The position numbers and the translations under genes were made by a program. Shown piece after piece: positions 1,737 to 43,707 of a stretch of 47,166 bases of DNA. Origin of the DNA: Octopus sinensis (lineage: Eukaryota); the NCBI RefSeq assembly GCF_006345805.1, contig NW_021835722.1, positions 1-47,166 on the forward strand, given 5' to 3'. Each line of letters opens with the position of its first letter. Position 1 is the first letter of the stretch. The notes beneath the pieces were generated by a model. That model made no database searches and was not told where the DNA came from. It was given only the letters and a program-made list of their open reading frames with translations.

Positions 1737-2013
1737 GGCAGATCAGGCCGAAAATGTCGCTAGAAGCTAGGATCACCAAGCATAGATTGGCATATTTCGG
1801 TCATATTATGCGGAGAAAATCCCTGGAGCAGGACATCAAGCTCGGAATGGTCAGTGGCAAGAGAGGAAGAGGCCGACCAAGAACCTGGTGGCTTAAACAC
1901 CATCAAGAGTGATACCGGAATGGACATAGCCAATCTGAAAGAAACGGCCCAGGATAGAACTGAGTGGAGGACACTGATCCAACGAGTGACCAAGACTCAC
2001 TTCGACTTAGCGG

Positions 2014-2048
<35 letters not shown>

Positions 2049-2345
2049 TATAATATATATATAAGTTCTTAAGCAGATCAGGCCGAAAAGTCGCTAGAAG
2101 CTAGGATCGCCAAGCATAGATTGGCATATTTCGGTCATATTATGCGGCGAAAATCCCTGGAGCAGGGCATGATGCTTGGAATGGTCAGTGGAAAGAGAGG
2201 GAGAGGCCGACCAAGAACCCGCTGACTTGACCCCATCATGAGTGATACTAGAATGGACATAGCCAATCTGAAAGAAGCGGCCTAGGATAGAACTGACTGG
2301 AGGACGCTGATCCATCGAGTAACCGAGAGTCGACTTCGACTGAGC

Positions 2346-2383
<38 letters not shown>

Positions 2384-2870
2384 TATATATATATATAAGG
2401 TTAATCCAAACGGAAACAGAAAAAACAACAACACGTGGAACAATTACAGTATTATTATTATTAGGCGCTCAGGAAAAGAAGAAGGAGGGTATGACGTTCC
2501 GAGCGAGCTCTTCGTCGGAAACATAAGAGAAGAAAGAAAGAAGAAACAAAGATCCCGATGTGGGCGAACAGAGGGAAAAAAAAAAGATAAGGCCGAAAAT
2601 GTCGCTAGAAGCTAGGATCACTCAGCATAGATTGGCTTATTTCGGTCATATTATGCGGAGAAAATCCCTGGAGCAGGACATCAAGCTCGGAATGGTCAGT
2701 GGCAAGAGAGGAAGAGGCCGACCAAGAACCCGGTGGCTTGACACCATCAAGAGTGATACCAGAATGGATATCGCCAACCTGAAAGAAGCGGCCTAGGATA
2801 GAAATGACTGGAGGACACTGATCCAACGAGTGACCGAGAGTCGACTTCGACTGAGCGGATATATATGTAT

Positions 2871-2935
<65 letters not shown>

Positions 2936-3234
2936 TATATATATTATATATATAAGTCTTAAGCAGATCAGGCCGAAAATGTCGCTAGAAGCTAGGATTA
3001 CCAAGCATAGAGTGCCTATTTTGGTAATATTATGTGGAGAAAATCCCTGGAGAAGGACATCATGCTCGGAATGGTCAGTGGCAAGAGAGGAAGAGACCGA
3101 CCAAGAACCCGCTGGCTTGACACCATCAAGAGTGATACCAGAATGGACATAGCCAATCTGAAAGAAGCGGCCCAGGATAGAACTGACTGGAGGACACTCA
3201 TCCAACGAGTGACCGAGAGTCGACTTCGACTGAG

Positions 3235-3284
<50 letters not shown>

Positions 3285-3570
3285 TTCTTAAGCAGATCAG
3301 GCCGAAAATATCGCTAGAAGCTAGGATCACCAAGCATAGAATGGCATATTTCGGTCATATTATGCGGAGAAAATCCCTGGAGAAGGACATCAAGCTCGGA
3401 ATGGTCAGTGGCAAGAGAGGAAGAGGCCGACCAAGAACCCGCTGGCTTGACACCATCAACAGTGATACCGGAATGGACATAGCCAATCTGAAAGAAGCGG
3501 CCCAGGATAGAACTGACTGGAGGACACTGATCCATCGAGTAACCGAGAGTCGACTTCGACTGAGCGGATA
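1737..3570 (+). mobile_element. Tandem array of five ~280-bp RTE-clade LINE 3' ends separated by (TA)n
   Basis: Copies at ~1737-2013, 2064-2347, 2584-2859, 2955-3239 and 3283-3570. They encode LAYFGHIMRRKSLEKDIxLGMVSGKRGRGRPRTRWLDTI...AAQDRTDWR, the typical RTE/BovB-like ORF C-terminus. Confidence 0.9.
2398..2583 (-). mobile_element. Penelope-like terminal fragment with degenerate hammerhead motif (2488-2523)
   Basis: Minus strand GTTT-CCGACGA-A-GAG(CTCG)CTC-GGAA-CG-TC resembles the CUGANGA...GAAA core with substitutions. The fragment runs into (TA)n at 2397. Confidence 0.45.
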
Positions 3571-4479
3571 GACAGATAGTGGCATTTCATTGTTGGAATT
3601 ATCACTGAAATACTTTATATATTTTAAAGATGAGGTGGTTCACCTAGAAAGTAATAACAATTGAGCATTTCAGCAGATGTATCAGAATGGGAGGATAAGC
3701 TGTCAAAACGATTACTGGTGTATAGAGCATATTATTGCAGAGAGCAATTAGAGAACGAATCATTCATATGTGTCATGGATTGAATATCAAATATTTAGAG
3801 GCAGCATAGCACAGTCACAGATATTGGATATACTAAACGAAACCGAAAGCAGTATATCAATCATATGGCGTAAAAAGTAATTCAAACAATCAACATGATA
3901 ATAAAAGTCAGTCACATTTTCCTTTACAAGAGACTATATTAAAGTATAAGCTGAAAGCAATACGAATCACTATGCAGTTTGTGCAAAGAAAGTGGTAGGT
4001 CTTTCACTAAAAAGATATTATATAAACTAGAAACTTACGTAACAGCCAGTTGTGAGGAAAATGTAATAACATTACAAATTGTAAATAAGCTAAGAAAAAA
4101 ACTAATTGAAAATGAGATTAGAAAACTTTTATTTTTTGGAAAGCAGTGTGAGAGTCTACATCACTGCCATAACTGACAAGATTAAACAAAGCAGAAACAA
4201 AAAATTGTAAAAAGTGTAGCAATTTCGATCTGATCGGTTGGGTACTCAAAGTTGAAACGAAATGAATAATGTATTGTGGTAAGAAAATGGCTGGGAAGCA
4301 ATAAGACTTACGTTATTTAAAACCAGCAACTATACTCGTCACTCGCAATGAAATATGAATTGGTAGAATGTAGCATGCTTTTCCTAACCATTTCAGAAGA
4401 CTTAGTTGATACCTGCCGATAGCGTCAATGTTTGAGCCAACCAATGTCACATTACAGAATATGAGAGTTGGAGGGAGGA

Positions 4480-4630
4480 ATTATAGTGCCAGCACTTGGT
4501 ATATATTTCAGCTGATTGAAATGGAGCGACGAGAACGGATGTCTTTTTGTGAAAGAGCAGGCACGCTGCCTGGTTCAAAATTGAACCCCATTTTAACGAT
4601 CATGAATTCCTATTTTAACCTACTCTGCCT
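4480..4630 (-). mobile_element. Old degraded tRNA-derived SINE (SINE-C-like)
   Basis: Reverse complement loosely aligns to the 14024-14170 head/body (B-box ggttcaat, ...gctcca...tcagctg). Confidence 0.45.
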
Positions 4631-6230
4631 TCATGCTCATGCAAAATTACTGTATCGCAAACTTGCATGGCAAAGTAAAGATAAAGTTGACCAATTGAAT
4701 TTCACGCAAGAAGTTACGGCAACAAATGAAATGATTACAACAAGGTAATGGCACAAACATTTTCCAGAAAAAATGTTTTGGTATATTACAAGTTAATGAT
4801 CTTAAAAATTGTATTATGGCCCGTGTATATTTAAGCGGCCGCATGAATTGGAAGTGAACAACGAAGGCAAAAACATCAGTGTAACAAATTGAGTTTCATT
4901 ACAGATAGAGAAGATACGATTTATTCGTTATCCTATTATTATTGGCAACTTAAATTTATATGTTGATAACGGTGTGTGACGTCAAGGAAGCCTCGACTTG
5001 GAATTGTGTAAAGTATGAGAATATAACAATTCAGACTGAAAAATAAGACATATTTTGGAACCTCCAAGAGAATAGGAGATACGGTAGATTTTCTATTGTG
5101 TTTTCTATAAATCCGTAGTAAGAAATTAAATTAAGAGATATGTGAAAAATATGCGATATAAAATAATCTATTTTAGTAAAGAAAATTGCATATCTTCTAT
5201 CTGCATATCGAGCCATAACATGATAACTATTGGACCAAGATTATATACCACGCTCAGTGGAAAAAAGTTTTGAAAATATCATATGCAATATTAATAAATA
5301 TGACATTATGAGGCATTGTATTCCAAGAAACATATAAAACAGCATTTACTGAACGTACGAAATTTGCGAAAGGTGTCATTTAAGTGTGCGATAGTACAAA
5401 AATATGGCAAATATATTATTTCTACTGAAACCAAAATATTGCAAAGTAAATTTGCTGTTCATATTCGAAGCAATGCAGCTCAAACTGAATATAGAAGCTG
5501 CAATATAATTAGAACAGGAAAATAACATTAACGCGTAAGACTTCGTATGTAGTTAGAATTTTATTTGAATGTTCTGTAAAAATTCATCACATGATATTAG
5601 AGAATAATAATTTAGACTGTAATTAACGTCAAAATATTTTGTACATCATATTATAGCAACAATGGATAAATGGTTTAAATTATTATTCGTGTAAAGGAGT
5701 AAAAATCTCTGCAGAAAAAGATCATTGCCTATGTGACAAAACCTTTTAAAAGGACAGAACCGCTGGTCTGCTATTATACGAGGACCATACCTTCTATGCT
5801 GTACATAAATAGGTATGTTGTAGTTAATGTCTCTACAGAACTACCATCATTAACATTTTTTCTAACATACATTTATATCTTATTTCTCCGTACATTTCGT
5901 GATCAAAAATAATATTGAAGCTACGGTTTTCCCTTCATCTCTCGAAGTAGTGTTAATAAATCAACTTTCCTTCAGTAATTTACTTAAATAATTTAACACA
6001 GTATTATACATTCTGCGCTTCTAGATTTAAAGTCACATCACGAAACACTTACCCAAATTTTGTACTTAGCTGTTTAAAGTTATCTACAAAATGCCGTGAA
6101 GCGTTGCCTTATGGACGAAAAACTACATATCCGAATAAGCTCTGCATCAATTCTCAACGTATAATTTATTTATTCCTTCGTGAGTGATACCCATATAGAT
6201 AGATAAGCACACAGACATATGGCATATATA

Positions 6231-6572: not shown

Positions 6573-6812
6573 AATAATAATAAATATTAGGGAATAAATC
6601 CAAATTTACAGGGAAAAATCAGATTTAGGACTGAATCCAATTTTATAGTAAAATATTATATAATATTAATTAGAGACAAAATCACTATTATTCAAATCAA
6701 ACAAAGAAAGGCTTAATCCAATACATAAAAAAATTTATATAAATTAACTAAAATGAAATTCGCCACTACAATTGTTTCGTGTCTCTTCTAAGGACATTCA
6801 TCAGGTGGTATT
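6573..6812 (-). mobile_element. Penelope-like/retrozyme terminal fragment
   Basis: Carries a hammerhead motif at its 5' side and ends in (ATT)n/(TA)n at ~6572. Confidence 0.6.
6763..6808 (-). ncRNA. Minimal type-I hammerhead ribozyme
   Basis: CCAC-CUGAUGA-A-UGUC(9-nt loop)GACA-C-GAAA-CAAUUG-UA-GUGG: 4-bp stem I, intact core, palindromic stem III. Confidence 0.75.
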
Positions 6813-7362: not shown

Positions 7363-7514
7363 TCATACATATATACACACACACATGTAGGCGTGTCTAT
7401 GTGTGTGTGTGAATGTCTGTTAACCTACATATGTATGTGTGTGTGTTTGTGTCTCTGTGTGTGAGTGCAAATGATAGTAAAACGTGTAACAACGCAATTT
7501 ATGTTTTATAGTGC

Positions 7515-7725
7515 CAAGCGGGAAGAGGAAATTAGCACGTCGGGCAAATTGCTTGGCGGATGGCGTCCGGCTTTACGTTCTGATTTCAAATTCCGCGGAC
7601 GTCGAATTTGTATTTCATCATTTCGATGTTCGTTAGAATAAATAATATTTTAGCACTAGGGTCGACATAATCCAGTTCTCCTTACAACAAAATTGCTTGC
7701 CTTGTGCCAAACATTTACACCAGAA
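7515..7725 (+). mobile_element. SINE-B, degraded copy
   Basis: ttagcacgtcgggcaaattgc...ttcaaattccgcggacgtcga aligns to 13767 and 35171. Confidence 0.7.
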
Positions 7726-8291
7726 TTATATTTTGTATCGTTGGGTACAGTTGAGGGTTAAAAACAAGGTAAATCTTCTTTCTGGATGAAAAACGATGAA
7801 AAGACTCAGATGACCATTTTTATAGTGAGTAAAGACAAATCACATGACGATGACAATGGACGATTTTTATCCAACAGGTTTCGAGACTCGCAAAATGAAG
7901 AAAAAAATATTTTTCAAATATGGCGAAGATGAGAATTTCTGTTAAATAAATATAAATCACAAACGTTGAGAAGAAAATTTACAAGCAATTATGAATATAG
8001 CGCAGCTGCGGCATATGTCTCTACAACAGGAAAAACAGTCACCGGAAGAACAAGAAGACATACAATATTGAATAAAATATGAGTGTCTTGCTGAAGATAT
8101 ACTCTGTATGGAGACGTATTTATACATATTTACAAAAGTATACGGCGCACGCACATACATAGAGACACACTCGTCCACACACTCAAACACCGTCCAACCT
8201 ATATGGCTGCTTTTGTGCGTGAGAATGTGTTTGTCTATATATGTATATGTATGTCTGTATCTATACATATACGTGTGTGTGTGTATGTATA

Positions 8292-22291: not shown

Positions 22292-22693
22292 CATTCGGTT
22301 GTACAAATTCTCTGCGCGGGAAACCTTCCCTGTGTGGCGTGTTTCCCGATTTTGTAGAATTTGCTTTCGGGCTTTCTTAGCCATTTTCTGTTTTGGGCAT
22401 GGCGTCTTCAAGCCATGAAGTCGTCGTTGAAAAGAAGGCTGGTCTCCTTGACAACGCTTTACGAAGTTGATTTCTTTACACTCCCTTCCCCACAGCTTCA
22501 CGAGGGAGGGAAGAAGGGGTAGAAGCAACACAGGTGCAGGTGCGAGCATCGACGCCAACTCCGTCGCCATGGACACACGAAAAATTTGGAAGAACCCAGA
22601 CGAGAGCTTCACAGTCATATACTACTACGGACCCCTCTGCCACAAACACCACCAGCACCACTACAACTACCACCATGACCATCACTACCACCA
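22292..22693 (-). repeat. Dispersed ~400-bp module, inverted copy of 30717-31110 (Helitron-associated)
   Basis: Almost the same KLWGRxCKEIN.VKRCQGDQPSFQ frame appears in ORFs 22286..22618 (-) and 30899..31114 (+). Confidence 0.85.
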
Positions 22694-22980
22694 TATATAT
22701 ACCACAATATATACAACGCATGGTCGTTGAAATGCTTTCTCATATTCCTTCCTACAACAGATATTGTATTAAAAACAAATAAGAATTATTTCAGACATCT
22801 TAAGCTTACACGTGGTACATAACCTTTATAGAAATAGCTGAGCTGAAATCCACAGGAGAAAAAATCACTAAATAATCACAATAAATTGTATATATTGTTT
22901 CAAGTAAAGTACAAAGAATGTTATTAACTGCAATTCATGACAAACGATTTTCCACTTCAGCACCGGAAAATACCACTTAC

Positions 22981-23363: not shown

Positions 23364-23394
<31 letters not shown>

Positions 23395-26300
23395 TAAACA
23401 CACATACATACACATGAATGTATATATATGTATATATATATATACACATATATATTTATGTATATATTCATACAATATATATAATATATATCCATACAAT
23501 ATATATATATATATATATCCATATATATATATATATATATATCCATATATATATATATATATATATCCATATATAATATATATATCCATATATATATATA
23601 TATATATATCCATATAATATATATATTATATCCATATATACATATATCCATACATATATATCCATACATACATATATATACATATATATCCATACATACA
23701 TATATATACATATATATCCATACATACATTATATACAATATCCATACATACATATATATACATATATCCAACATACATATATATACATATCCATACATAC
23801 ATATATATACATATATCCATACATATATATATATATACATATATCCATACATATATATATATATACATATATCCATACATATATATATATATACATATAT
23901 CCATACATATATATATATACATATATCCATACATATATATATATACATATATCCATACAATATATATATATATACATTAATCCATACATATAATATATAC
24001 ATATATCAATACATATATATATATACATATATCCATACTATATATAAATATATCCATACATATATATATAACATATATCCATACATATATATATATACAT
24101 ATATCCATACATATATATAATAATATATCCATACATATATATATATACATATATCCATACATATATATATATACATATATCCATACATATATATATATAC
24201 ATATATCCATACATATATATATATATACATATATCCATACATATATATATATATACATATATCCATACATATATATATACATAATCCATACATATATATA
24301 TATACATATATCCATACATATATATATATACATATATCCATACATATATATATATACATATATCCATACATATATATATATACATATATCCATACATATG
24401 TATATATACATATATCCATACATATGTATATATACATATATCCATACATATATATATATACATATATCCATACATATATATATATATACATATATCCATA
24501 CATATATATATATACATATATCCATACATATATATATATACATATATCCATACATATATATATATACATATATCCATACATATATATATATACATATATA
24601 CATATATATATCCATATATATTTACACATATATATATATCCATATCCATATATCCATATCCATATATACATATATATATTTATCCATATATACATATATA
24701 TATTTATCCATATATACATATATATATTTATCCATATATACATATATATATTTATCCATATATACATATATATATTTATCCATATATACATATACATATC
24801 TACATATACATATCTACATATACATATCTACATATACATATCTACATATACATATCTACATATACATATCTACATATACATATCTACATATACATATCTA
24901 CATATACATATCTACATATACATATCTACATATACATATCTACATATACATATCTACATATACATATCTACATATACATATCTACATATACATATCTACA
25001 TATACATATCTACATATACATATCTACATATACATATCTACATATACATATCTACATATACATATCTACATATACATATCTACATACATATCTACATATA
25101 TATCCATATATACACATACATATATATTCATATATACATATACATATATATCCATATATATACATATATATATATCCATATATCCATATATACATATCCA
25201 TATATACATATTCATATTCCATATATATATAATATATATCCATATATACATATAATCCATATATATATATATATATATATCCATATATATATATATCCAT
25301 ATAATATATATATATCCATATATATATATATATCCATATATATATTCATACATATATATATATATATCCATATATATATTCATACATATATATATATATC
25401 CATATAATATATTCATAAATATATATATATTATCCTATATATATTCATACATATATATATATATATACATATATATATCATACATATATATATATATCCA
25501 TATATATATTCATACATATATATATATATCCATATATATATTCATACATATATATATATATCCATATATATATCATACATATATATATATATCCATATAT
25601 ATATTCATACATATATATATAATCCATATATATATTCATACATATATATATATATCCATATATATATTCATACATATATATATATCCATATATATATTCA
25701 TACATATATATATATCCATATATATATTCATACATATATATATATATCCATATATATATTCATACATATATATATATATCCATATATATATTCATACATA
25801 TATATATATATATCCATTATATATTCATACATATATATATATATCCATATATATATTCATACATATATATATACCATATATATATTCATACATATATATA
25901 TATCATATATATATTCATACATATATATATATCCATATATATATTCATATATATATTCATACATATATATATATATCCATATATATATTCATACATATAT
26001 ATATATATCCATATATATATTCATACATATATATATATATCCATATATATATTCATACATATATATATATATCCATATATATATTCATACATAATATATA
26101 TATATCCATATATATATTAAACATATATATATATATATCCATATATATTCATACATATATATATATATCCATATATATATTCTACATATATATATATCTA
26201 TCCATATATATATTCATACATATATATATATCCATATATATATTCATACATATATATATATCCATATATATATATTCATACATATATATATATATCCATA

Positions 26301-28400
26301 TATATATATTCATACATATATTATATATCCATATATATATATTCATACATATATATATATATCCATAATATATTCATACATATATATATATATATATCTA
26401 ATATATTCATACATATATATATATATATCCATATATATATTCATACATATATATATATATATCCATATATATATATATCCAATATATATTCATACATATA
26501 TATATATATCCATATATATATTCATACATATATATATCCATATATATATCCATACATATAGATATCTCATATATATATTCATACATATATATATCCATAT
26601 ATATATTCATACATATATATATCCATATATATATTCATACATATATATATCCATATATATATTCATACATATATATATCCATATATATATTCATACATAT
26701 ATATATCCATATCAATATATATATTCATACATATATATATATATATCCATATCTACATACATATCTACATACATATCTACATACATATCTACATACATAT
26801 CTACATACATATCTACATACATATCTACATACATATCTACATACATATCTACATACAATATCTACATACATATCTACATACATATCTACATACATATCTA
26901 CAACATATCTACATACATATCTACATACATATCTACATACATATCTACATACATATCTACATACATATCTACATACATATCTACATACATATCTAATACA
27001 TATCTACATACATATCTACATACATATCTACATACATATCTACATACATATCTACATACATATCTACATACATATCTACATACATATTACATACATATCT
27101 ACATACATATCTACATACATATCTACATACATATCTACATACATATCTACATACATATCTACATACATATCTACATACATATCTACATACATATCTACAA
27201 CATATCTACATACATATCTACATACATATCTACATACATATCTACATACATATCTACATACATATCTACATACATATCTACATACATATCTACATACATA
27301 TCTACATACATATCTACATACATATCTACATACATATCTACATACATATCTACATACATATCTATACATACATATCTACATACATATCTACATAAATATT
27401 CATACATATCTACATACATATCTACATACATATCTACATACATATCTACATACATATCTACATACATATCTACATACATATCTACATACATATCTACATA
27501 CATATCTACATACATATCTACATACATATCTACATACATATCTACATACATATCACATACATATCTACATACATATCTACATACATATCACATAATATCT
27601 ACATACATATCTACATACATATCTACTACATATCTACATACATATCTACATACATATCTACATACATATCTAATACATATCTACATACATATCTACATAC
27701 ATAATATCTACATACATATCTACATACATATCTAATACATATCTACATACATATCTACATACATATCTACATACATATCTACATACATATCTACATACAT
27801 ATACATACATATCTACATACATATCTACATACATATCTACATACATATCTACATACATATCTACATACATATCTACATACATATCTACATACATATCTAC
27901 ATACATATCTACATACATATCACTACATATCTACATACATATCTACATACATATCTACATACATATTCTACAACATATCTACATACATATCTACATACAT
28001 ATCTACATACATATCTACATACATATCTACATACATATCTTACATACATACTACATACATATCTACATACATATCTACATACATATCTACATACATATCT
28101 ACATACATATCTACATACATATCTACATACATATCTACATACATATCTACATACATATCTACATACATATCTACATACATATCTACATACATATCTACAT
28201 ACATATCTACATACATATCTACATACATATCTACATACATATCTACATATATATCCATATATACACATACATATATATCCATATATATACATATACATAT
28301 ATATCCATATACATATATATCCATATATATCCATATACATATATATCCATATATATACATATACATATATTCATATACATATATTCATATATATAAATAT
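23360..28400. repeat. ~5-kb (TA)-derived compound satellite
   Basis: Blocks: ~24-28-mer ATATCCATAC(AT)n (23600-24650), 14-mer TACATATACATATC (24795-25080), ~28-30-mer ATTCATAC(AT)nCCAT (25340-26745), 12-mer ATCTACATACAT (26748-28245). Confidence 0.95.
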
Positions 28401-28533
28401 ATGTGTGTGTGTGTGTGTGTGTTTGTGTATGCGTATAAACAGAGAGGGGAAGACAATGAGAGAATGAGAGAAAGACAGAAAGAGAGACTGTGTGCGTGTG
28501 TGTGTGTGAGACTGTCCGATACCAAGTAATTAC

Positions 28534-29777: not shown

Positions 29778-29898
29778 TATTTATATATATATAAATTCAG
29801 GGTGAATACTTGATAATTGTAAGCACCTGTATATACCATTTAGTGGTGTAGGTGATAGAGTATATTAATCAAAATAAAAACATGATGCAGAGGATTTA

Positions 29899-29976
29899 GC
29901 GGTACATATGTTTCGGGCCTTTATTAGACGGTTATATAACAATGCATAATGTGTGTCTATAGCCTTCTTCAGCCGC
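29899..29976 (-). ncRNA. Type-I hammerhead ribozyme with extended stem II
   Basis: GCGG-CUGAAGA-A-GGC...UAGAC...GUCUA...GCC-C-GAAA-CAUAUG-UA-CCGC. Confidence 0.75.
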
Positions 29977-30230
29977 GTACAATTACTACTTCAAGGACAT
30001 GTATTGCATTATAAGTTTTACGTTAGGGATGCAAATCCTCATAGTCGCGTACGACAGAGTGGGGCACCAACACAGAATCGAAGCGTCCATCCCGTTTTTC
30101 ACTCGATTCTACATCGATGGACGCTTCGATTCTGTGTTGGTGCCCCACTCTGTCGTCCGCGACTATGAGGATTTGCATCCCTAACGTAAAACTTTTAATG
30201 TTGTACATGTCCTTGAAGCAGTAATTGTAC

Positions 30231-30308
30231 GCAGCTGAAGAAGTCTATAGACACACATTATGCATTGTTATAAAACCATCTAATAAAGGCCCGAAACATA
30301 TGTACCGC
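30231..30308 (+). ncRNA. Second hammerhead copy, stems I and II weakened
   Basis: GCAG-CUGAAGA-A-GUC...GCC-C-GAAA-CAUAUG-UA-CCGC; core intact, with stem mismatches. Confidence 0.6.
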
Positions 30309-30642
30309 TAAATCCTTTGCATCATGTTTTTATTTTGATTAATATACTCTATCACCTACACCACTAAATGGTATATACAGGTGCTTACAATTATCAAGTA
30401 TTCACCCTGATTTTATATATGTATATATATATATACAGGCACACATATATACATATACATATAAAGGAGTTCACTTTTAGTGGATTCCCTCTCATATGTA
30501 TCAATATTATTTACTGAATCTCAGTTTTTTATGCGCTAAACCATTGGTGTTAGACTGATATTATTAAATTAATATACCCTTTTTCACCCTCATTTTGATT
30601 TTAATTCTATATATATATATATATGAAAAATATATGTATACG

Positions 30643-30716: not shown

Positions 30717-31363
30717 TTGGTGGTGTTGGTCGTCGTGGTAATGGTGGTGGTGTTTGTGGCAGAGTTGTCCGTAGTAGTATTTGACTGTGAAGCTGTCGTC
30801 TGGATTCTTCCAATATTTTCGTGTGTCGATGGCGGCGGCGTTGGCGTCGATGCTTGCACCTGCACCTGTGATGCTTCCCTCCCCTTCTTCCCTCCCTCGT
30901 GAAGCTGTGGGGAAGGCAGTGTAAGGAAATCAACGTCGTAAAGCGTTGTCAAGGAGACCAGCCTTCTTTTCAACAACGACTTCATGGCTTGAAGACGCCA
31001 TGCCCAAAACAGAAAATGGCTAAGAAAGCCCGAAAGCAAATTCAACAAAATCGGGAAACACGCCACACAGGGATGGTTTCCCGTGCAAATAATTTGCACA
31101 ACCGAATGCTTTAGTTGTTGCACAAATTTTACATACGAAATATTATCCGAACACAAACTTTTGAAGGCAATATTGTATGGCGATGGTATTTGTGAAATAT
31201 GGTAATAGATTTAGTAGCCAAAAGGAGAGAGCGGAGGCATAGTATGGTGGTGGTGGCGGCGGTGGTAGTGGCAGCGGTGGTGGCGGTGGTGTTGGTAGTG
31301 GTGATGGTGGTCGTGGTCGTGGTGGTCGTCGTGTTTGTGGTGGTGATGGTGGTCGTCGTCGTG

Positions 31364-31395
<32 letters not shown>

Positions 31396-32887
31396 CGTCG
31401 TGATGGTGGTGGCGATGGTGGTGGTGGTGGTGGTCATGGTGGTAGTGGTGATGGTGTTGGTCGTGGTGGTGGTGGCTGAAGCCGTCGTCTGGGTTCTTCC
31501 AATTTTTTCGTGTGTCGGTGGCGGCGTTGGCGTTCATGCTCGCACCTGCACCTGTGTAGCTCCTCCCCTTCTTCAATCCCTCGTGAAGCTGTGGGGAAGG
31601 CAGGGTAAGGAAATCAACGTCGTAAAGCGTTGTCAAGGAGACCAGCCTTCTTTTAGAACAACGACTTCATGGCTTTGAAGTCGCACAAAACAGAAATCGC
31701 TAAAAAAGCTGAGACAGATCCACAAAAACGGCAAAAACCGCCACACAGGGCAGGTTTCCCGTGCAAACAATTTGCACAACCGAATGTTTTAGTTGTTGCA
31801 CAAATTTTACAAAAAATATTATCCGAACACCAACATTTGAAGTTTAGTATTGTCTTTTTTTCATTTTTAACGCTTGTGCAAAATTTGATTTGTTTTTGGT
31901 GGTAGTGTTGGTGTCACTTGTAGTGGTTGAGGTTGTAGTAATAGTGTGGTGTTGTTGGCAGTTACGGTAGACGGCGAAACGACGATATCATTGCTGTTGT
32001 TGTTGTTGGTGGTGGTGGTGGTAGTGTCGGTGTTGGTAGTGGTGGTAGTGTTGGTGTCACTTGTAGTGGTTGAGGTTGTAGTAGTAGTGGTGGTGTTGTT
32101 GGCAGTTATGGTAAACGGCAAAACGACGATATCGTTGTTGTTGTCGTTGATGGTGATAGTGGTGGTTGTTGTGGTGGTAGTGATGATGGCGGTGGTGGTC
32201 GTCGTCGTGGTGGTGGTAGTGTTGGTGTCACTTGTAGTGGTTTAGGTTGTAGTAGTAGTGGTGGTGTTGTTGTTGGCAGTTATGGTAGACGGTAAAACGA
32301 CGATATCGTTGCTGTTGTTGTTGTCGTTGTTGGTGGTGGTGACGGTGGAATTTCTCAATTCACTGGAGCCTCCTGGACTACTTCCACACATATTAGCACT
32401 TACAGTTGGAACTCCTGTAATGCTACTCCGCAATCTGGAACCACCAAGAGTTTCCAATGGAACACGACTGGTGATAAAGAAAATGATGTCACACGTTATC
32501 GAAGCGATCATTCTTTCTGGATGTGGAAAAGCTGATGACGTCTTTATTCTAAGATTTCCTCTTACTCCATCAGGAGCAGAAATTCCATTTACATTCAGAA
32601 GACTGCAATTCCCCCTTCGTATCAGCCTTGCCATGTCCATTAACAAATCTCAGGGTCAAACCCTCTCAGTAGTTGGTCTTCTCTTGAAAGAGCCATGCTT
32701 CTTGCATGGGCAACTGTATGTTGGCTGCTCAAGAGTAGGAACCAAAAGAAACCTTTTTGTATATGCTCCGCAAGGAAAAACAAGGAATATTGTTTACAAC
32801 GAGGTGTTATTATCTCAACAGCCAGAAGGTATATACGTGATCCCCTTTTTTAACGAACTTCATGTACATTCATGTCTTTATATTAAA

Positions 32888-39437: not shown

Positions 39438-42260
39438 TCAGCTGTCGAACAACTGTTGTCACGTGTGGGACGAGTCGGTTTATCAGCTGAGTCTGTCGTC
39501 AATATTGCCACGCCTCCTTCCTTCAAACGGGAAGGAAGAGCTATTTTCATCATCCTTGTGGCTATGGCGAAAGAATGTATCTGGTGGACGCGTCTGAAAG
39601 GATTGGAGACAAACACTTTCCTCTCTGGTCAATCTCTCACCAACTTCTTCAAGTACCACTTGAAAAGGATAGTGAGAGTAGAGAGGCAAGTTTTGTCTAG
39701 CGTATGTTTTAAAAAAGATGGGTGAATGTAGCAAGGATGGCACGTATGAATGACGAAGCCACCTTGACATAATCCTATGAACCCAGAAATTGAAAACAGA
39801 GGGTTACCCACTTGCAAACAAATGTGGTAACATATAACAATATTGACCAAGGTTACCGTGGTCTTTTTCGTAGGCTTTTCTTCCCATGGATAAACCTTAC
39901 TTGCTTTCCCCTTTACACCATATATCATATCACTGTGATACACGATCCCTATTGATCGTTTTTTTCCTCTCCCCCTTTTTTCTTTTTTCATTTCTCTTTT
40001 CTTTTGTTCCTTTTCTTTTTTTTTTAATTTTATTTTATTTTATCTTTTTTGTTCTTTTTCCCTTTTACGATCCCTTTTGATCGAAAAACTACGCCACCCT
40101 TTTTTTCTTTTGTTTTTTTTCATCCCCCAAAGAAAAGCTCTACCTTGTAACTTGTCCCATCTGTGTGCAGCCCTGTGTGGCCAATAAAGAAACTTATCTA
40201 TTCAGCTATCTTTATCTATCTGTCTAATCGGATATCTTTATCTATCTATCTAATCGGATATCTTTATCTATCTATCTATCCCTTCAGCTATCTTTATCTA
40301 TATATCTATCAATCTATCTATCCCTTCAGCTATCTTTATCTATCTATCTATCTATCTATCTCTTCAGCTATCTTTATCTATCTATCTATCAAGCTATCTT
40401 TACCTATCTATCTATCAAGCTATCTTTACTATCTATCTATCTATCCCTTCAGCTATCTTTATCTATCTATATATCTCTTCAGCTATATTTATCTCTCTAT
40501 CTATCTATCTCTTCAGCTGTCTTTATCTATCTATCTATCAAGCTATCTTTATCTAACTATCCCTTCAGCTATCTTTATCTATCTATCTATCAAGCTATCT
40601 TTATCTATCTATCTATCCCTTCAGCTATCTTTAATCTATCTATCTATCCCTTCAGCTATCTTTAATCTATCTATCAATCAAGCTATCTTTATCTATCTCT
40701 TCAGCTATCTTTATCTATCTATCTATCTATCTCTCAAGCTATCTTTACTATCTATCTATCTATCTCTCAAGCTATCTTTACTATCTATCTATCTATCCCT
40801 TCAGCTATCTTTATCTATCTATCTATCTCTTCAGCTATCTTTATCTATCTATCTATCTACCTCTTCAGCTATCTTTATCTATCTATCTATCAAGCTATCT
40901 TTATCTAACTATCCCTTCAGCTATCTTTATCTATCTATCTATCAAGCTATCTTTATCTATCTATCTATCCCTTCAGCTATCTTTATCTATCTATCTATCT
41001 CTTCAGCTATCTTTATCTATCTATCTATCTCTTCAGCTATCTTTATCTATCTCTTCAGCTATCTTTATCTATCTATCTATCTCTTCAGCTATCATTATCT
41101 ATCTATCTATCTCTTCAGCTATCATTATCTATCTATCTATCTCTTCAGCTATCTTTTTCTATCTATCTCTTCAGCTATCTTTATCTATCTATCTATCTAT
41201 CTATCCCTTCAGATATCTTTATCTATCTATCTATCTATCCCTTCAGCCATCTTTATCCATCTATCTATCCCTTCAGCTATCTTTATCTATATATCTATTC
41301 AGCTATCTTTATCTATCTGTCTAATCGGATATCTTTATCTATCTATCTATCCCTTCAGCTATCTTTATCTATATATCTATCAATCTATCTATCCCTTCAG
41401 CTATCTTTATCTATCTATCTATCTATCTCTTCAGCTATCTTTATCTATCTATCTATCAAGCTATCTTTATCTATCTATCAAGCTATCTTTATCTATCTAT
41501 CTATCTATCTCTTCAGCTATCTTTATCTATCTCTTCAGCTATCTTTATCTATCTATCTATCTATCCCTTCAGCTATCTTTATCTATATATCTATCTATCT
41601 ATTCAGCTATCTTTATCTATCTGTCTAATCGGATATCTTTATCTATCTATCTTTATCTATCTGTCTAATCGGGTATCTTTATCTATCTATCCCTTCAGCT
41701 ATCTTTATCTATATATCTATCAAGCTATCTTTATCTATCTATCTATCTCTTCAGCTATCTTTATCTATTTATCTATCAAGCTATCTTTATCTATCTATCT
41801 ATCTCTTCAGCTATCTTTATCTATCTATCTATCTATCTATCTATCTCTTCAGCTATCTTTATCTATCTATCTATCTATCTCTTCAGCTATCTTTATCTAT
41901 CTATCTATCTATCTATCAAGCTATCTTTATCTAACTATCCCTTCAGCTATCTTTATCTATCTATCTATCCCTTCAGCTATCTTTATCTATCTATCTATCA
42001 AGCTATCTTTATCTATCTATCTATCACTTCAGCTATCTTTATCTATCTCTTCAGCTATCTTTATCTATCTATCTATCTATCTATCTCTTCAGCTATCTTT
42101 ATCTATCTATCTATCTATCTATCTATCTCTTCAGCTATCTTTATCTATCTATCTATCTCTTCAGCTATCTTTATCTATCTATCTATCTCTTCAGCTATCT
42201 TTATCTATCTATCTATCTCTTCAGCTATCTTTATCTATCTATCTATCTCTTCAGCTATCT

Positions 42261-42301
<41 letters not shown>

Positions 42302-42314
42302 CCTTCAGATATCT

Positions 42315-42347
<33 letters not shown>

Positions 42348-42360
42348 CCTTCAGATATCT

Positions 42361-42393
<33 letters not shown>

Positions 42394-43480
42394 CCTTCAG
42401 ATATCTTTATCTATCTATCTATCTATCTATCCCTTCAGCCATCTTTATCCATCTATCTATCTATCCCTTCAGCTATCTTTATCTATCTATCTATCTAGCT
42501 ATCTTTATCTATCTATCTATCTATCTATCTATCAATCTATCTATCTATCCAGCTATCTTTATCTATCTATCTATCTATCAATCTATCCAGCTATCTTTAT
42601 CTATCTATCTATCAATCTATCCAGCTATCTTTATCTATCTATCTATCAATCTATCCAGCTATCTTTATCTATCTATCTATCAATCTATCCAGCTATCTTT
42701 ATCTATCTATCTATCAATCTATTCAGCTATCTTTATCTATCTATCTATCAATCTATTCAGCTATCTTTATCTATCTATCTATCAATCTATTCAGCTATCT
42801 TTATCTATCTATCTATCAATCCCTTCAGCTATCTTTATCTATCTATTCAGCTATCTTTATCTATCTATCTATCTATTCAGCTATATTTATCTATCTATCT
42901 ATCTATTCAGCTATCTTTATCTATCTATCTATCAATCTATCTATCTATTGAGCTATCTTTATCTATCTATCAATCTATCTATCTATTGAGCTATCTTTAT
43001 CTATCTATCCATCAATCTATCTATCTATTGAGCTATCTTTATCTATCTATCCATCAATCTATCTATCTATTGAGCTATCTTTATCTATCTATCCATCAAT
43101 CTATCTATCCAGCTATATTTATCTATCTATCAATCTATCTATCTATTCAGCTATCTTTATCTATCTATCTATCTATCAATCTATCTATCTATTCAGCTAT
43201 CTTTATCTATCTATCTATCAATCTATCTATCTATTCAGCTATCTTTATCTATCTATCTATCAATCTATCTATCTATTCAGCTATCTTTATCTATCTATCT
43301 ATCAATCTATCTATCTATTCAGCTATCTTTATCTATCTATCAATCTCTCTATCTATTCAGCTATCTTTATCAATCTATCTATTCCTTCAGCTATCTTTAT
43401 CTATCTGTCTCAGTATCTATCTGTCTCAGTATCTATCTGTCTCAGTATCTATCTGTCTCAGTATCTATCTAGCTACCTAT
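39305..43480. repeat. (ATCT)n-derived satellite with TTCAGCTATCTTT nodes, interrupted by a LINE fragment
   Basis: Variable ~20-45-bp units over ~3.3 kb (40195-43480) plus 39305-39443. Confidence 0.95.
39444..40194 (+). mobile_element. 5'-truncated L1/Tx1-type LINE (ORF2 C-terminus + T-rich 3' UTR)
   Basis: ...IFIILVAMAKECIWWTRLK...FFKYHLKRIVRVERQVL...FKK(frameshift)RWVNVA fits a Tx1-group ORF2 end; terminates AATAAAGAAA; candidate TSD TATCTATTCAGCT (39431-39443, 40195-40207). Confidence 0.75.
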
Positions 43481-43707
43481 ATATCTATCTACCTACTTAT
43501 CTATCTACCTATCTATCTCGCCCTCTCTTTTCTTTCTCTCCGTGTCTCACTCACTCTCTCTTATGTTGTGAAGCAACCATGACATTGACCGCAACACGAA
43601 GATAAATGTGTCTAGTGCTGCACAATTCTGTTTTCTGCACTATGTCTCGGAGTGTTTGGCCCTCGACTGCAGGTATATCAAGGCACTGAAGTGAATAAAA
43701 GAAGATT

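What the first reader, a model, noticed from the sequence alone, without database searches (positions are those of the whole stretch)
29787..30420. 634-bp palindrome with an outward-facing hammerhead ribozyme in each arm
Seen: 305-bp inverted arms and a 24-bp spacer. Each arm has CUGAAGA...GAAA-CAUAUG-UA, and both terminate in (TA)n. The left copy has perfect GCGG/CCGC and GGC/GCC stems plus an unusually long stem II (UAGAC/GUCUA extension); the right copy has stem mismatches. Established: Penelope-like elements carry minimal type-I hammerheads with palindromic stem III that can cleave as dimers, and often have inverted terminal repeats. Inference: this is a non-coding head-to-head PLE derivative or retrozyme. 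A transcript from either strand would carry one ribozyme plus its antisense, so a ~300-bp dsRNA would compete with self-cleavage, which matters in animals with heavy ADAR editing.
Basis: partly seen in the sequence, partly recalled or inferred. Interest (0 to 1): 0.75.

Follow-up and report, generated by a model that had tools for sequence, protein, structure and literature searches.

The report
Head-to-head Penelope retrotransposon stub, two-tailed
This mirror-image repeat is two short copies of the end piece of a common jumping gene (a Penelope-like retrotransposon) joined head to head, each with a predicted self-cleaving RNA; the layout is a known trait of these elements and is frequent in this genome, and the only oddity is that both halves carry a tail that is normally on one half only.

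Summary
The palindrome and both hammerhead motifs are real. Each arm is the terminal repeat (pLTR) of a high-copy Penelope-like element. Related copies flank an 842-aa frame with a telomerase-like reverse transcriptase and a C-terminal endonuclease bearing the Hydra-clade motifs. Outward-facing hammerhead pairs are the family's usual insertion form: 26 outward and 0 inward pairs among the first 100 of 1,542 motif hits. The junction is unique, so the palindrome does not move as a unit and is not a retrozyme. The 24-bp 'spacer' is element sequence. Both arms share two rare alleles and then decayed separately, so they likely come from one template in one insertion. Of 68 pairs, 64 have a 71-nt tail on exactly one arm; this locus is the only terminal pair with two. 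Any read-through RNA is predicted to bury the ribozyme in a 300-bp hairpin; transcription, cleavage and editing are untested. The architecture is published, and this scan noted it before on other DNA (313 findings). Ordinary, with one small mechanistic clue.

The parts
29790..30107 (-). Left arm: pLTR plus tail of a Penelope-like element, 318 nt, ending 7 nt short of the family's common 5' end
   Evidence: (84% to the pLTRs of full-length copy L109)
29790..29860 (-). Left tail, 71 nt: sequence between the family's two 3' end points; in tandem copies it runs on into the leader of the ORF
29899..29976 (-). Left minimal type I hammerhead motif, stems intact; predicted cut between 29903 and 29902
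30106..30107 (.). Head-to-head junction, 2-nt overlap (AT) shared by both arms; 30106 is the A at which 5' ends of family copies pile up (likely transcription start)
   Evidence: sequence
30106..30417 (+). Right arm: pLTR plus tail, starting at the common 5' end, with a 13-nt deletion between 30117 and 30118 bounded by GA/GA
   Evidence: sequence compared with copies
30231..30308 (+). Right hammerhead motif, decayed (30233, 30244, 30278); predicted cut after 30304
30347..30417 (+). Right tail, 71 nt; the anomaly: partner arms normally stop at the position equal to 30346
   Evidence: loose (TA)n ends at 30346 in 3 of 4 public runs
29778..29789 (.). Left (TA)n target, at the end of a high-copy SINE-like repeat (label recalled)
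30418..30435 (.). Right (TA)n target; no target-site duplication can be told

Best explanation
The palindrome is two short copies of the terminal repeat of a Penelope-like retrotransposon joined head to head in a TA run, likely made in one insertion when both cut DNA ends primed copying of the element's RNA, and it is now a decaying stub whose ribozymes are predicted to be silent. Shown: identity of the arms, the parent element, the two family 3' end points, the pile-up of 5' ends, the unique junction, shared rare alleles. Inferred steps: the element's RT-endonuclease cut both strands of (TA)n; each 3' end primed reverse transcription downstream of the hammerhead on uncleaved (or re-joined) RNA; both cDNAs ran to or near the RNA's 5' end about 325 nt away; the two cDNA ends were joined through a 2-nt overlap with a 13-nt deletion. 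Normally one cDNA starts at the near site and one at the far site, giving one tail; here both likely started at the far site. The hammerhead is a passenger of the pLTR; with one sense copy per strand, preceded by its own antisense, it would neither fold nor find a dimer partner in a read-through RNA.
For: Full-length pLTR-ORF-pLTR copy L109 and inverted-pLTR copies L061 (91% to the arm), L110, L111, L113. ORF model matches telomerase RT best (E 8e-9). 26 outward and 0 inward pairs within 6 kb among the first 100 of 1,542 hits, gaps 75-4,887 nt. One tail in 26 of 26 of those loci and 64 of 68 pairs overall; 61 of 68 have TA runs at both ends. 13 of 223 copies begin within the same 2 nt against 19 in a 100-nt stretch upstream. 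Both arms carry alleles seen in 1 of 63 and 1 of 67 other copies; 11 of their 12 differences are alleles found in at most 8% of 72 copies. In vitro, a PLE protein cuts and extends both strands, starts at two internal sites that bound the tail, and does not need hammerhead cleavage (PMC11167929).
Against: No step of the mechanism was assayed. Arms of a pair are not in general more alike than the best outside copy (higher in 16 of 46, equal in 6), so the one-template claim rests on two alleles at this locus. The double tail breaks the family rule and could be secondary. The transcription start is inferred from DNA ends only. Loci were chosen by searches, not at random; 15 of the 68 pairs were found through a tail pattern. 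Arkhipova et al. read such junction palindromes as self-priming on an antisense RNA (PMC3846280).
Confidence: 0.72

Rival explanations
1. Same origin, but the locus began with one tail and gained the second later, by template switching or gene conversion between the arms.
For: The one-tail rule is very strong (64 of 68; no opposite-strand pair within 6 kb among the first 100 of 127 exact tail hits). The tail has 1 difference in 71 nt against 11 in 231 nt of the body, with a 93-nt identical run.
Against: That contrast is not significant (Fisher p 0.31); the mirror image does not extend past the TA run into unique flank.
Confidence: 0.13
2. The inversion arose by fold-back self-priming of one cDNA or of an antisense RNA rather than by priming at both DNA ends.
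For: Junctions often hold short palindromes or filler; proposed in PMC3846280; explains shared alleles.
Against: A fold-back copy should reproduce the same 3' end, yet 64 of 68 pairs have different ends at two fixed points; arms of unequal 5' length and gaps up to 4.9 kb are common. It fits this two-tailed locus better than the family.
Confidence: 0.08
3. A mobile or functional unit: a MITE-like or retrozyme-like palindrome, or a kept source of double-stranded RNA.
For: Symmetric ends; the left hammerhead is intact; 11 of 26 pairs on contig 1 are under 600 nt.
Against: Junction 25-mer occurs once at up to 2 mismatches; junctions differ among short pairs; no tandem array; decay hits the stems without compensation.
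Confidence: 0.03
4. Assembly or read fold-back artefact on a small unplaced contig.
For: The window is a whole 47-kb contig; this is the only terminal two-tail pair.
Against: Arms differ by 12 substitutions and no indel, two of them CpG-type; flanks are unique on both sides; the right arm holds 7 nt of family sequence that the left arm lacks.
Confidence: 0.04

Closest known systems
Endonuclease-positive Penelope-like elements with an inverted 5'-truncated pLTR and a one-sided tail (PMC3846280; PMC8557442)
   Same: Head-to-head inverted pLTRs, tail at one end in the family, microhomology junctions, microsatellite targets, hammerhead in the pLTR.
   Different: Tail 71 nt (up to about 83 in some copies) against the 30-40 nt described, and it ends upstream of the ORF's first ATG; this locus has a tail on both arms and no ORF.
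Hydra clade of PLEs (Craig et al. 2021, PMC8557442), e.g. Penelope-13_HM and Hydra-1_Obim
   Same: DKT, RW(K/A), CxCX5C linker, CxxC and CxH at the C terminus, no GxKF/Y, (TA)n targets; hammerheads with a 4-bp stem II behind an unpaired 10.1/11.1 position; Penelope-13_HM is listed with an inverted truncated copy and a hammerhead on each strand.
   Different: Unit about 4.8 kb with a 1.9-kb 3' UTR against generally under 3 kb; hammerhead sequence unlike that listed for Hydra-1_Obim; loop II of about 40 nt against 3-10 nt in the listed Hydra motifs. No tree against reference proteins was built.
Minimal type I hammerheads of metazoan PLEs (PMC4209133)
   Same: Short stem I, palindromic minimal stem III; that paper already reports pairs 100-700 bp apart on opposite strands.
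   Different: Activity not tested here; no Rfam model matches.
Non-LTR retrozymes (PMC7229834, listing only; bioRxiv 10.64898/2026.07.22.740005, first part)
   Same: Non-coding, type I hammerhead, related to pLTRs.
   Different: Retrozymes are head-to-tail tandem repeats with a ribozyme in consecutive units; this is one inverted pair of an ORF-bearing family.

Membership tests
EN+ Penelope-like element | Single ORF with telomerase-like RT | tested here: met
   In linked full-length copies, not in the window: 842-aa frame, FDI and YRDD motifs; model pLDDT 82.8, best fold match TERT. Pfam and PDB sequence searches missed it.
EN+ Penelope-like element | GIY-YIG endonuclease at the C terminus | tested here: met
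   YIG motif and linker cysteines conserved in 40 of 40 aligned proteins; Pfam support weak (1 of 40, E 0.0055); one homologue is named a predicted GIY-YIG endonuclease.
EN+ Penelope-like element | pLTRs flanking the ORF, direct or inverted | tested here: met
   L109 direct; L061, L110, L111, L113 inverted.
EN+ Penelope-like element | Hammerhead in the pLTR | tested here: met
   141 of 157 copies spanning the site match the motif.
EN+ Penelope-like element | Optional tail, usually at one end | tested here: met
   64 of 68 pairs; longer than described; two tails at this locus.
EN+ Penelope-like element | Retained spliceosomal intron (some families) | not tested
   No raw RNA reads available.
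Hydra clade | DKT, RWK, CxCX5C, CxxC-E, CxH; no GxKF/Y | tested here: met
   DKT132, RWA45 (K in 29 of 40 homologues), C702/704/710, C799/802, C829/H831; no GxKF/Y.
Hydra clade | Insertion into (TA)n | tested here: met
   61 of 68 pairs have TA runs at both ends, 7 at one.
Hydra clade | Placement in an RT tree with reference Hydra proteins | not tested
   Reference proteins were not available as stored sequences; filed as likely Hydra by motifs only. Length (4.8 kb) exceeds the usual, a descriptive trait.
Minimal type I hammerhead | Core CUGANGA, GAAA, UH with stems I-III | tested here: met
   Left copy intact, right copy with broken pairs.
Minimal type I hammerhead | Stem covariation | tested here: inconclusive
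   0 of 19 pairs change on both sides within the family, 96% identical. Across 15 other motif classes in the loci, 9 have a fully palindromic stem III, which the descriptor did not demand.
Minimal type I hammerhead | Self-cleavage as dimer | not testable with these tools
   Stem III self-duplex of 8 bp, -7.0 kcal/mol, is a prediction.
Non-LTR retrozyme | Head-to-tail tandem units each with a hammerhead | tested here: not met
   One inverted pair; 3 same-strand neighbours against 26 outward pairs.
MITE or fold-back element | Recurs as a unit with fixed internal structure | tested here: not met
   Junction found once.

The most novel reading that the evidence does not exclude
Each inverted insertion of this Hydra-type family records one asymmetric reaction: a dimeric RT-endonuclease primes from both cut strands on one RNA at two fixed sites 71 nt apart and runs off at the transcript's start, which is why exactly one arm has the tail; this locus is the rare case in which both active sites used the far site. 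That would extend the two-site initiation seen in vitro for one Poseidon element to another clade, with a longer tail lying outside the ORF.
Probability: 0.45. Interest if true: 0.45.

Novelty: new member of a known kind. Interest (0 to 1): 0.22.

Why it matters
How Penelope-like elements build their inverted ends and tails is still open (PMC8557442, PMC11167929). This locus adds no new kind of element, but its family gives countable rules: one tail per pair, two fixed 3' ends, one 5' run-off point. These can be tested against an in vitro reaction. Hundreds of such inverted pairs in a genome that is likely a cephalopod's are potential double-stranded RNA sources, but nothing here shows that this one is transcribed or edited.

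Tried and rejected
Rfam: no hammerhead hit. Pfam and PDB sequence searches did not name the ORF; the fold search did. My first clade guess, Neptune, was dropped after reading the Hydra definition. Within-family covariation: none. Arm identity within against between loci did not separate one template from two. Tail against body divergence: not significant. A cap-derived G before the 5' end: G in 7 of 18 ends, with near-duplicate loci and misclassified rows, inconclusive (that script used 14 ends where one search lists 13, so its P value is slightly too small). Public runs: no RNA holder listed; only assembled contigs, which match the family, and no listed piece bridges the junction: neither confirms nor refutes the locus, expression or editing. 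A>G differences at 29835, 30025 and 30310 occur in DNA-type runs too, so they are family variants. No target-site duplication can be read in the TA runs. Look-up of earlier findings by sequence returned nothing. Five paper searches returned no description of this family or of counted one-tail frequencies; subscription papers, Repbase and most of the Craig supplement (57 of 59 parts unread, one term search) were not seen.

Full report
Observation. The inverted repeat is at 29778-30091 and 30116-30429, with 12 substitutions and no indel in 302 element-derived positions. Both arms hold a minimal type I hammerhead motif facing outward. The left one has intact stems; the right one has three stem-breaking changes. 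Rfam does not detect them, but a strict descriptor finds 135 hits of this family in the fetched DNA and none in three shuffles.

What the arms are. A search of the own genome (2.7 Gb) with one arm gave 2,055 candidates, 40 scored, 57 matches at up to 96% outside the window. Many copies continue upstream for more than 1 kb. Walking upstream reached an endonuclease frame and an RT thumb in L061, whose repeats are 91% identical to the arm, and then full elements: L109 reads pLTR 2710-3027, 842-aa frame 3088-5613, 3' UTR, pLTR 7479-7793, with pLTRs 84% identical to the arm. The protein has 517 homologues at E<=0.001, 120 listed. Its model (40 of these aligned) matches telomerase RT best. It carries the motifs that Craig et al. 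give for the Hydra clade (PMC8557442 section 11). Their supplement lists an octopus Hydra family with a different hammerhead, and a Hydra element with an inverted truncated copy and a hammerhead on each strand. That the host is an octopus is my inference from a recalled SINE sequence and argonaut homologues.

How common the layout is. A 23-nt hammerhead word occurs 1,542 times. Among the first 100 places listed, all on contig 1, neighbours within 6 kb form 26 outward pairs, 0 inward pairs and 3 same-strand pairs; 26 of 71 clusters hold an outward pair and 11 pairs are under 600 nt. The window's junction occurs once. So the layout is made anew at each site. It is published: inverted truncated copies and one-sided tails (PMC8557442 passages; PMC3846280 passages) and hammerhead pairs 100-700 bp apart on opposite strands (PMC4209133 parts 1-2 of 4). 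The scan's own notes hold 313 findings with these words in at least 39 genomes; they are unchecked and agree with the reading below.

Ends. Copies stop at two 3' points 71 nt apart: 87 tailed, 78 tail-less, 13 other of 178; public contigs show the near point too. In tandem copies the tail runs into the ORF leader. Of 68 head-to-head pairs with both ends visible, 64 have exactly one tail, 1 none, 1 a partial second, and 2 have two; one of these two is an internal tandem junction (L104), the other is this locus. The 26 loci taken in order from contig 1 all have one tail. None of the first 100 of 127 exact tail hits has an opposite-strand partner within 6 kb. On the 5' side, 13 of 223 copies begin at the A of TCATTC or one base later, against 19 in a 100-nt stretch upstream; 73 continue beyond 140 nt. 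The motif looks like an initiator (recalled), and PLE transcription starts in the pLTR (PMC6765202 passages). The right arm starts at that A (30106), the left arm 7 nt later, overlapping by AT, so the 'spacer' is element DNA.

One template, then decay. Against 72 close copies, both arms share two alleles found in 1 of 63 and 1 of 67, and no other copy examined has both. Of the 12 differences, 3 are rare alleles of the left arm, 8 of the right arm and 1 is a common variant. Arm identity of 96% is at the low end for this subfamily (median 97.2%, n 22) and below younger subfamilies (median 99.2%, n 34). A general test of within-locus against between-locus identity was uninformative.

Mechanism. 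For the anole element PAc the protein cuts AT-rich DNA on both strands, extends both, starts at two internal RNA sites that bound the tail, is modelled as a dimer, and inserts uncleaved RNA (PMC11167929 parts 1-2 of 4). Our anatomy fits: both arms point away from the junction as two first-strand cDNAs would, both include 42-113 nt beyond the predicted cut, and both end at the inferred RNA start. I take twin priming with both starts at the far site as most likely (0.72); later copying of the tail, fold-back priming, a functional unit and artefact share the rest.

The ribozyme. Stems I-III are conserved but invariant, with no compensatory change in 39 distinct copies; the extension proposed as a long stem II is the weakest helix. 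The 4-bp stem II behind an unpaired position matches most listed Hydra motifs. In a read-through RNA from either strand the antisense arm comes first and pairs the whole motif. Such motifs cleave weakly and as dimers or with protein help. No data here bear on expression or editing of the locus.

Verdict. A decaying, ORF-less inverted insertion of a Penelope-like element, likely of the Hydra clade. New family member, known architecture; the two-tail exception and the counted one-tail rule are modest clues to an open mechanism. Interest 0.22. Other papers seen: bioRxiv 10.64898/2026.07.22.740005, part 1 of 5; PMC7229834, listing only.

Noticed in passing
window 6763-6808 (-): A second, unrelated minimal type I hammerhead motif (stem I CCAC/GTGG, palindromic CAATTG), solitary, in AT-rich DNA between TA runs.
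   Followed up: partly
window 32246-32830 (+), with ~680-bp repeated units at 30718-31840 and a similar piece near 22300-22780: Frame with a Pif1 helicase 2B domain (E 3e-12), likely a Helitron-like fragment.
   Followed up: partly
L099:2386-2663 and L099:5561-5953: Two other hammerhead families also in outward-facing pairs; 15 other motif classes in the fetched loci, some with 9-11-nt stem III.
   Followed up: no
L109:3088-5613, L104:3946-6471, L106:1783-4308: Younger subfamilies keep uninterrupted 842-aa frames with two low-confidence Asn/Arg-rich inserts (residues 494-553, 639-697), recalling the N-rich inserts in rotifer PLEs.
   Followed up: partly
L148 (G000:C1:52555300-52558300) and L105/L106 (G000:C19): Whole head-to-head units repeated in tandem (about 1.1 kb and 5.3 kb), either local duplications or assembly repeats.
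   Followed up: no
window 1738-3570: 330-bp tandem units ending in (TA)n with RT-like C-terminal words, likely LINE 3' ends (label recalled).
   Followed up: no
window 23373-28402 and 40195-43518: Long strand-skewed microsatellite arrays of 5 kb and 3.3 kb.
   Followed up: no
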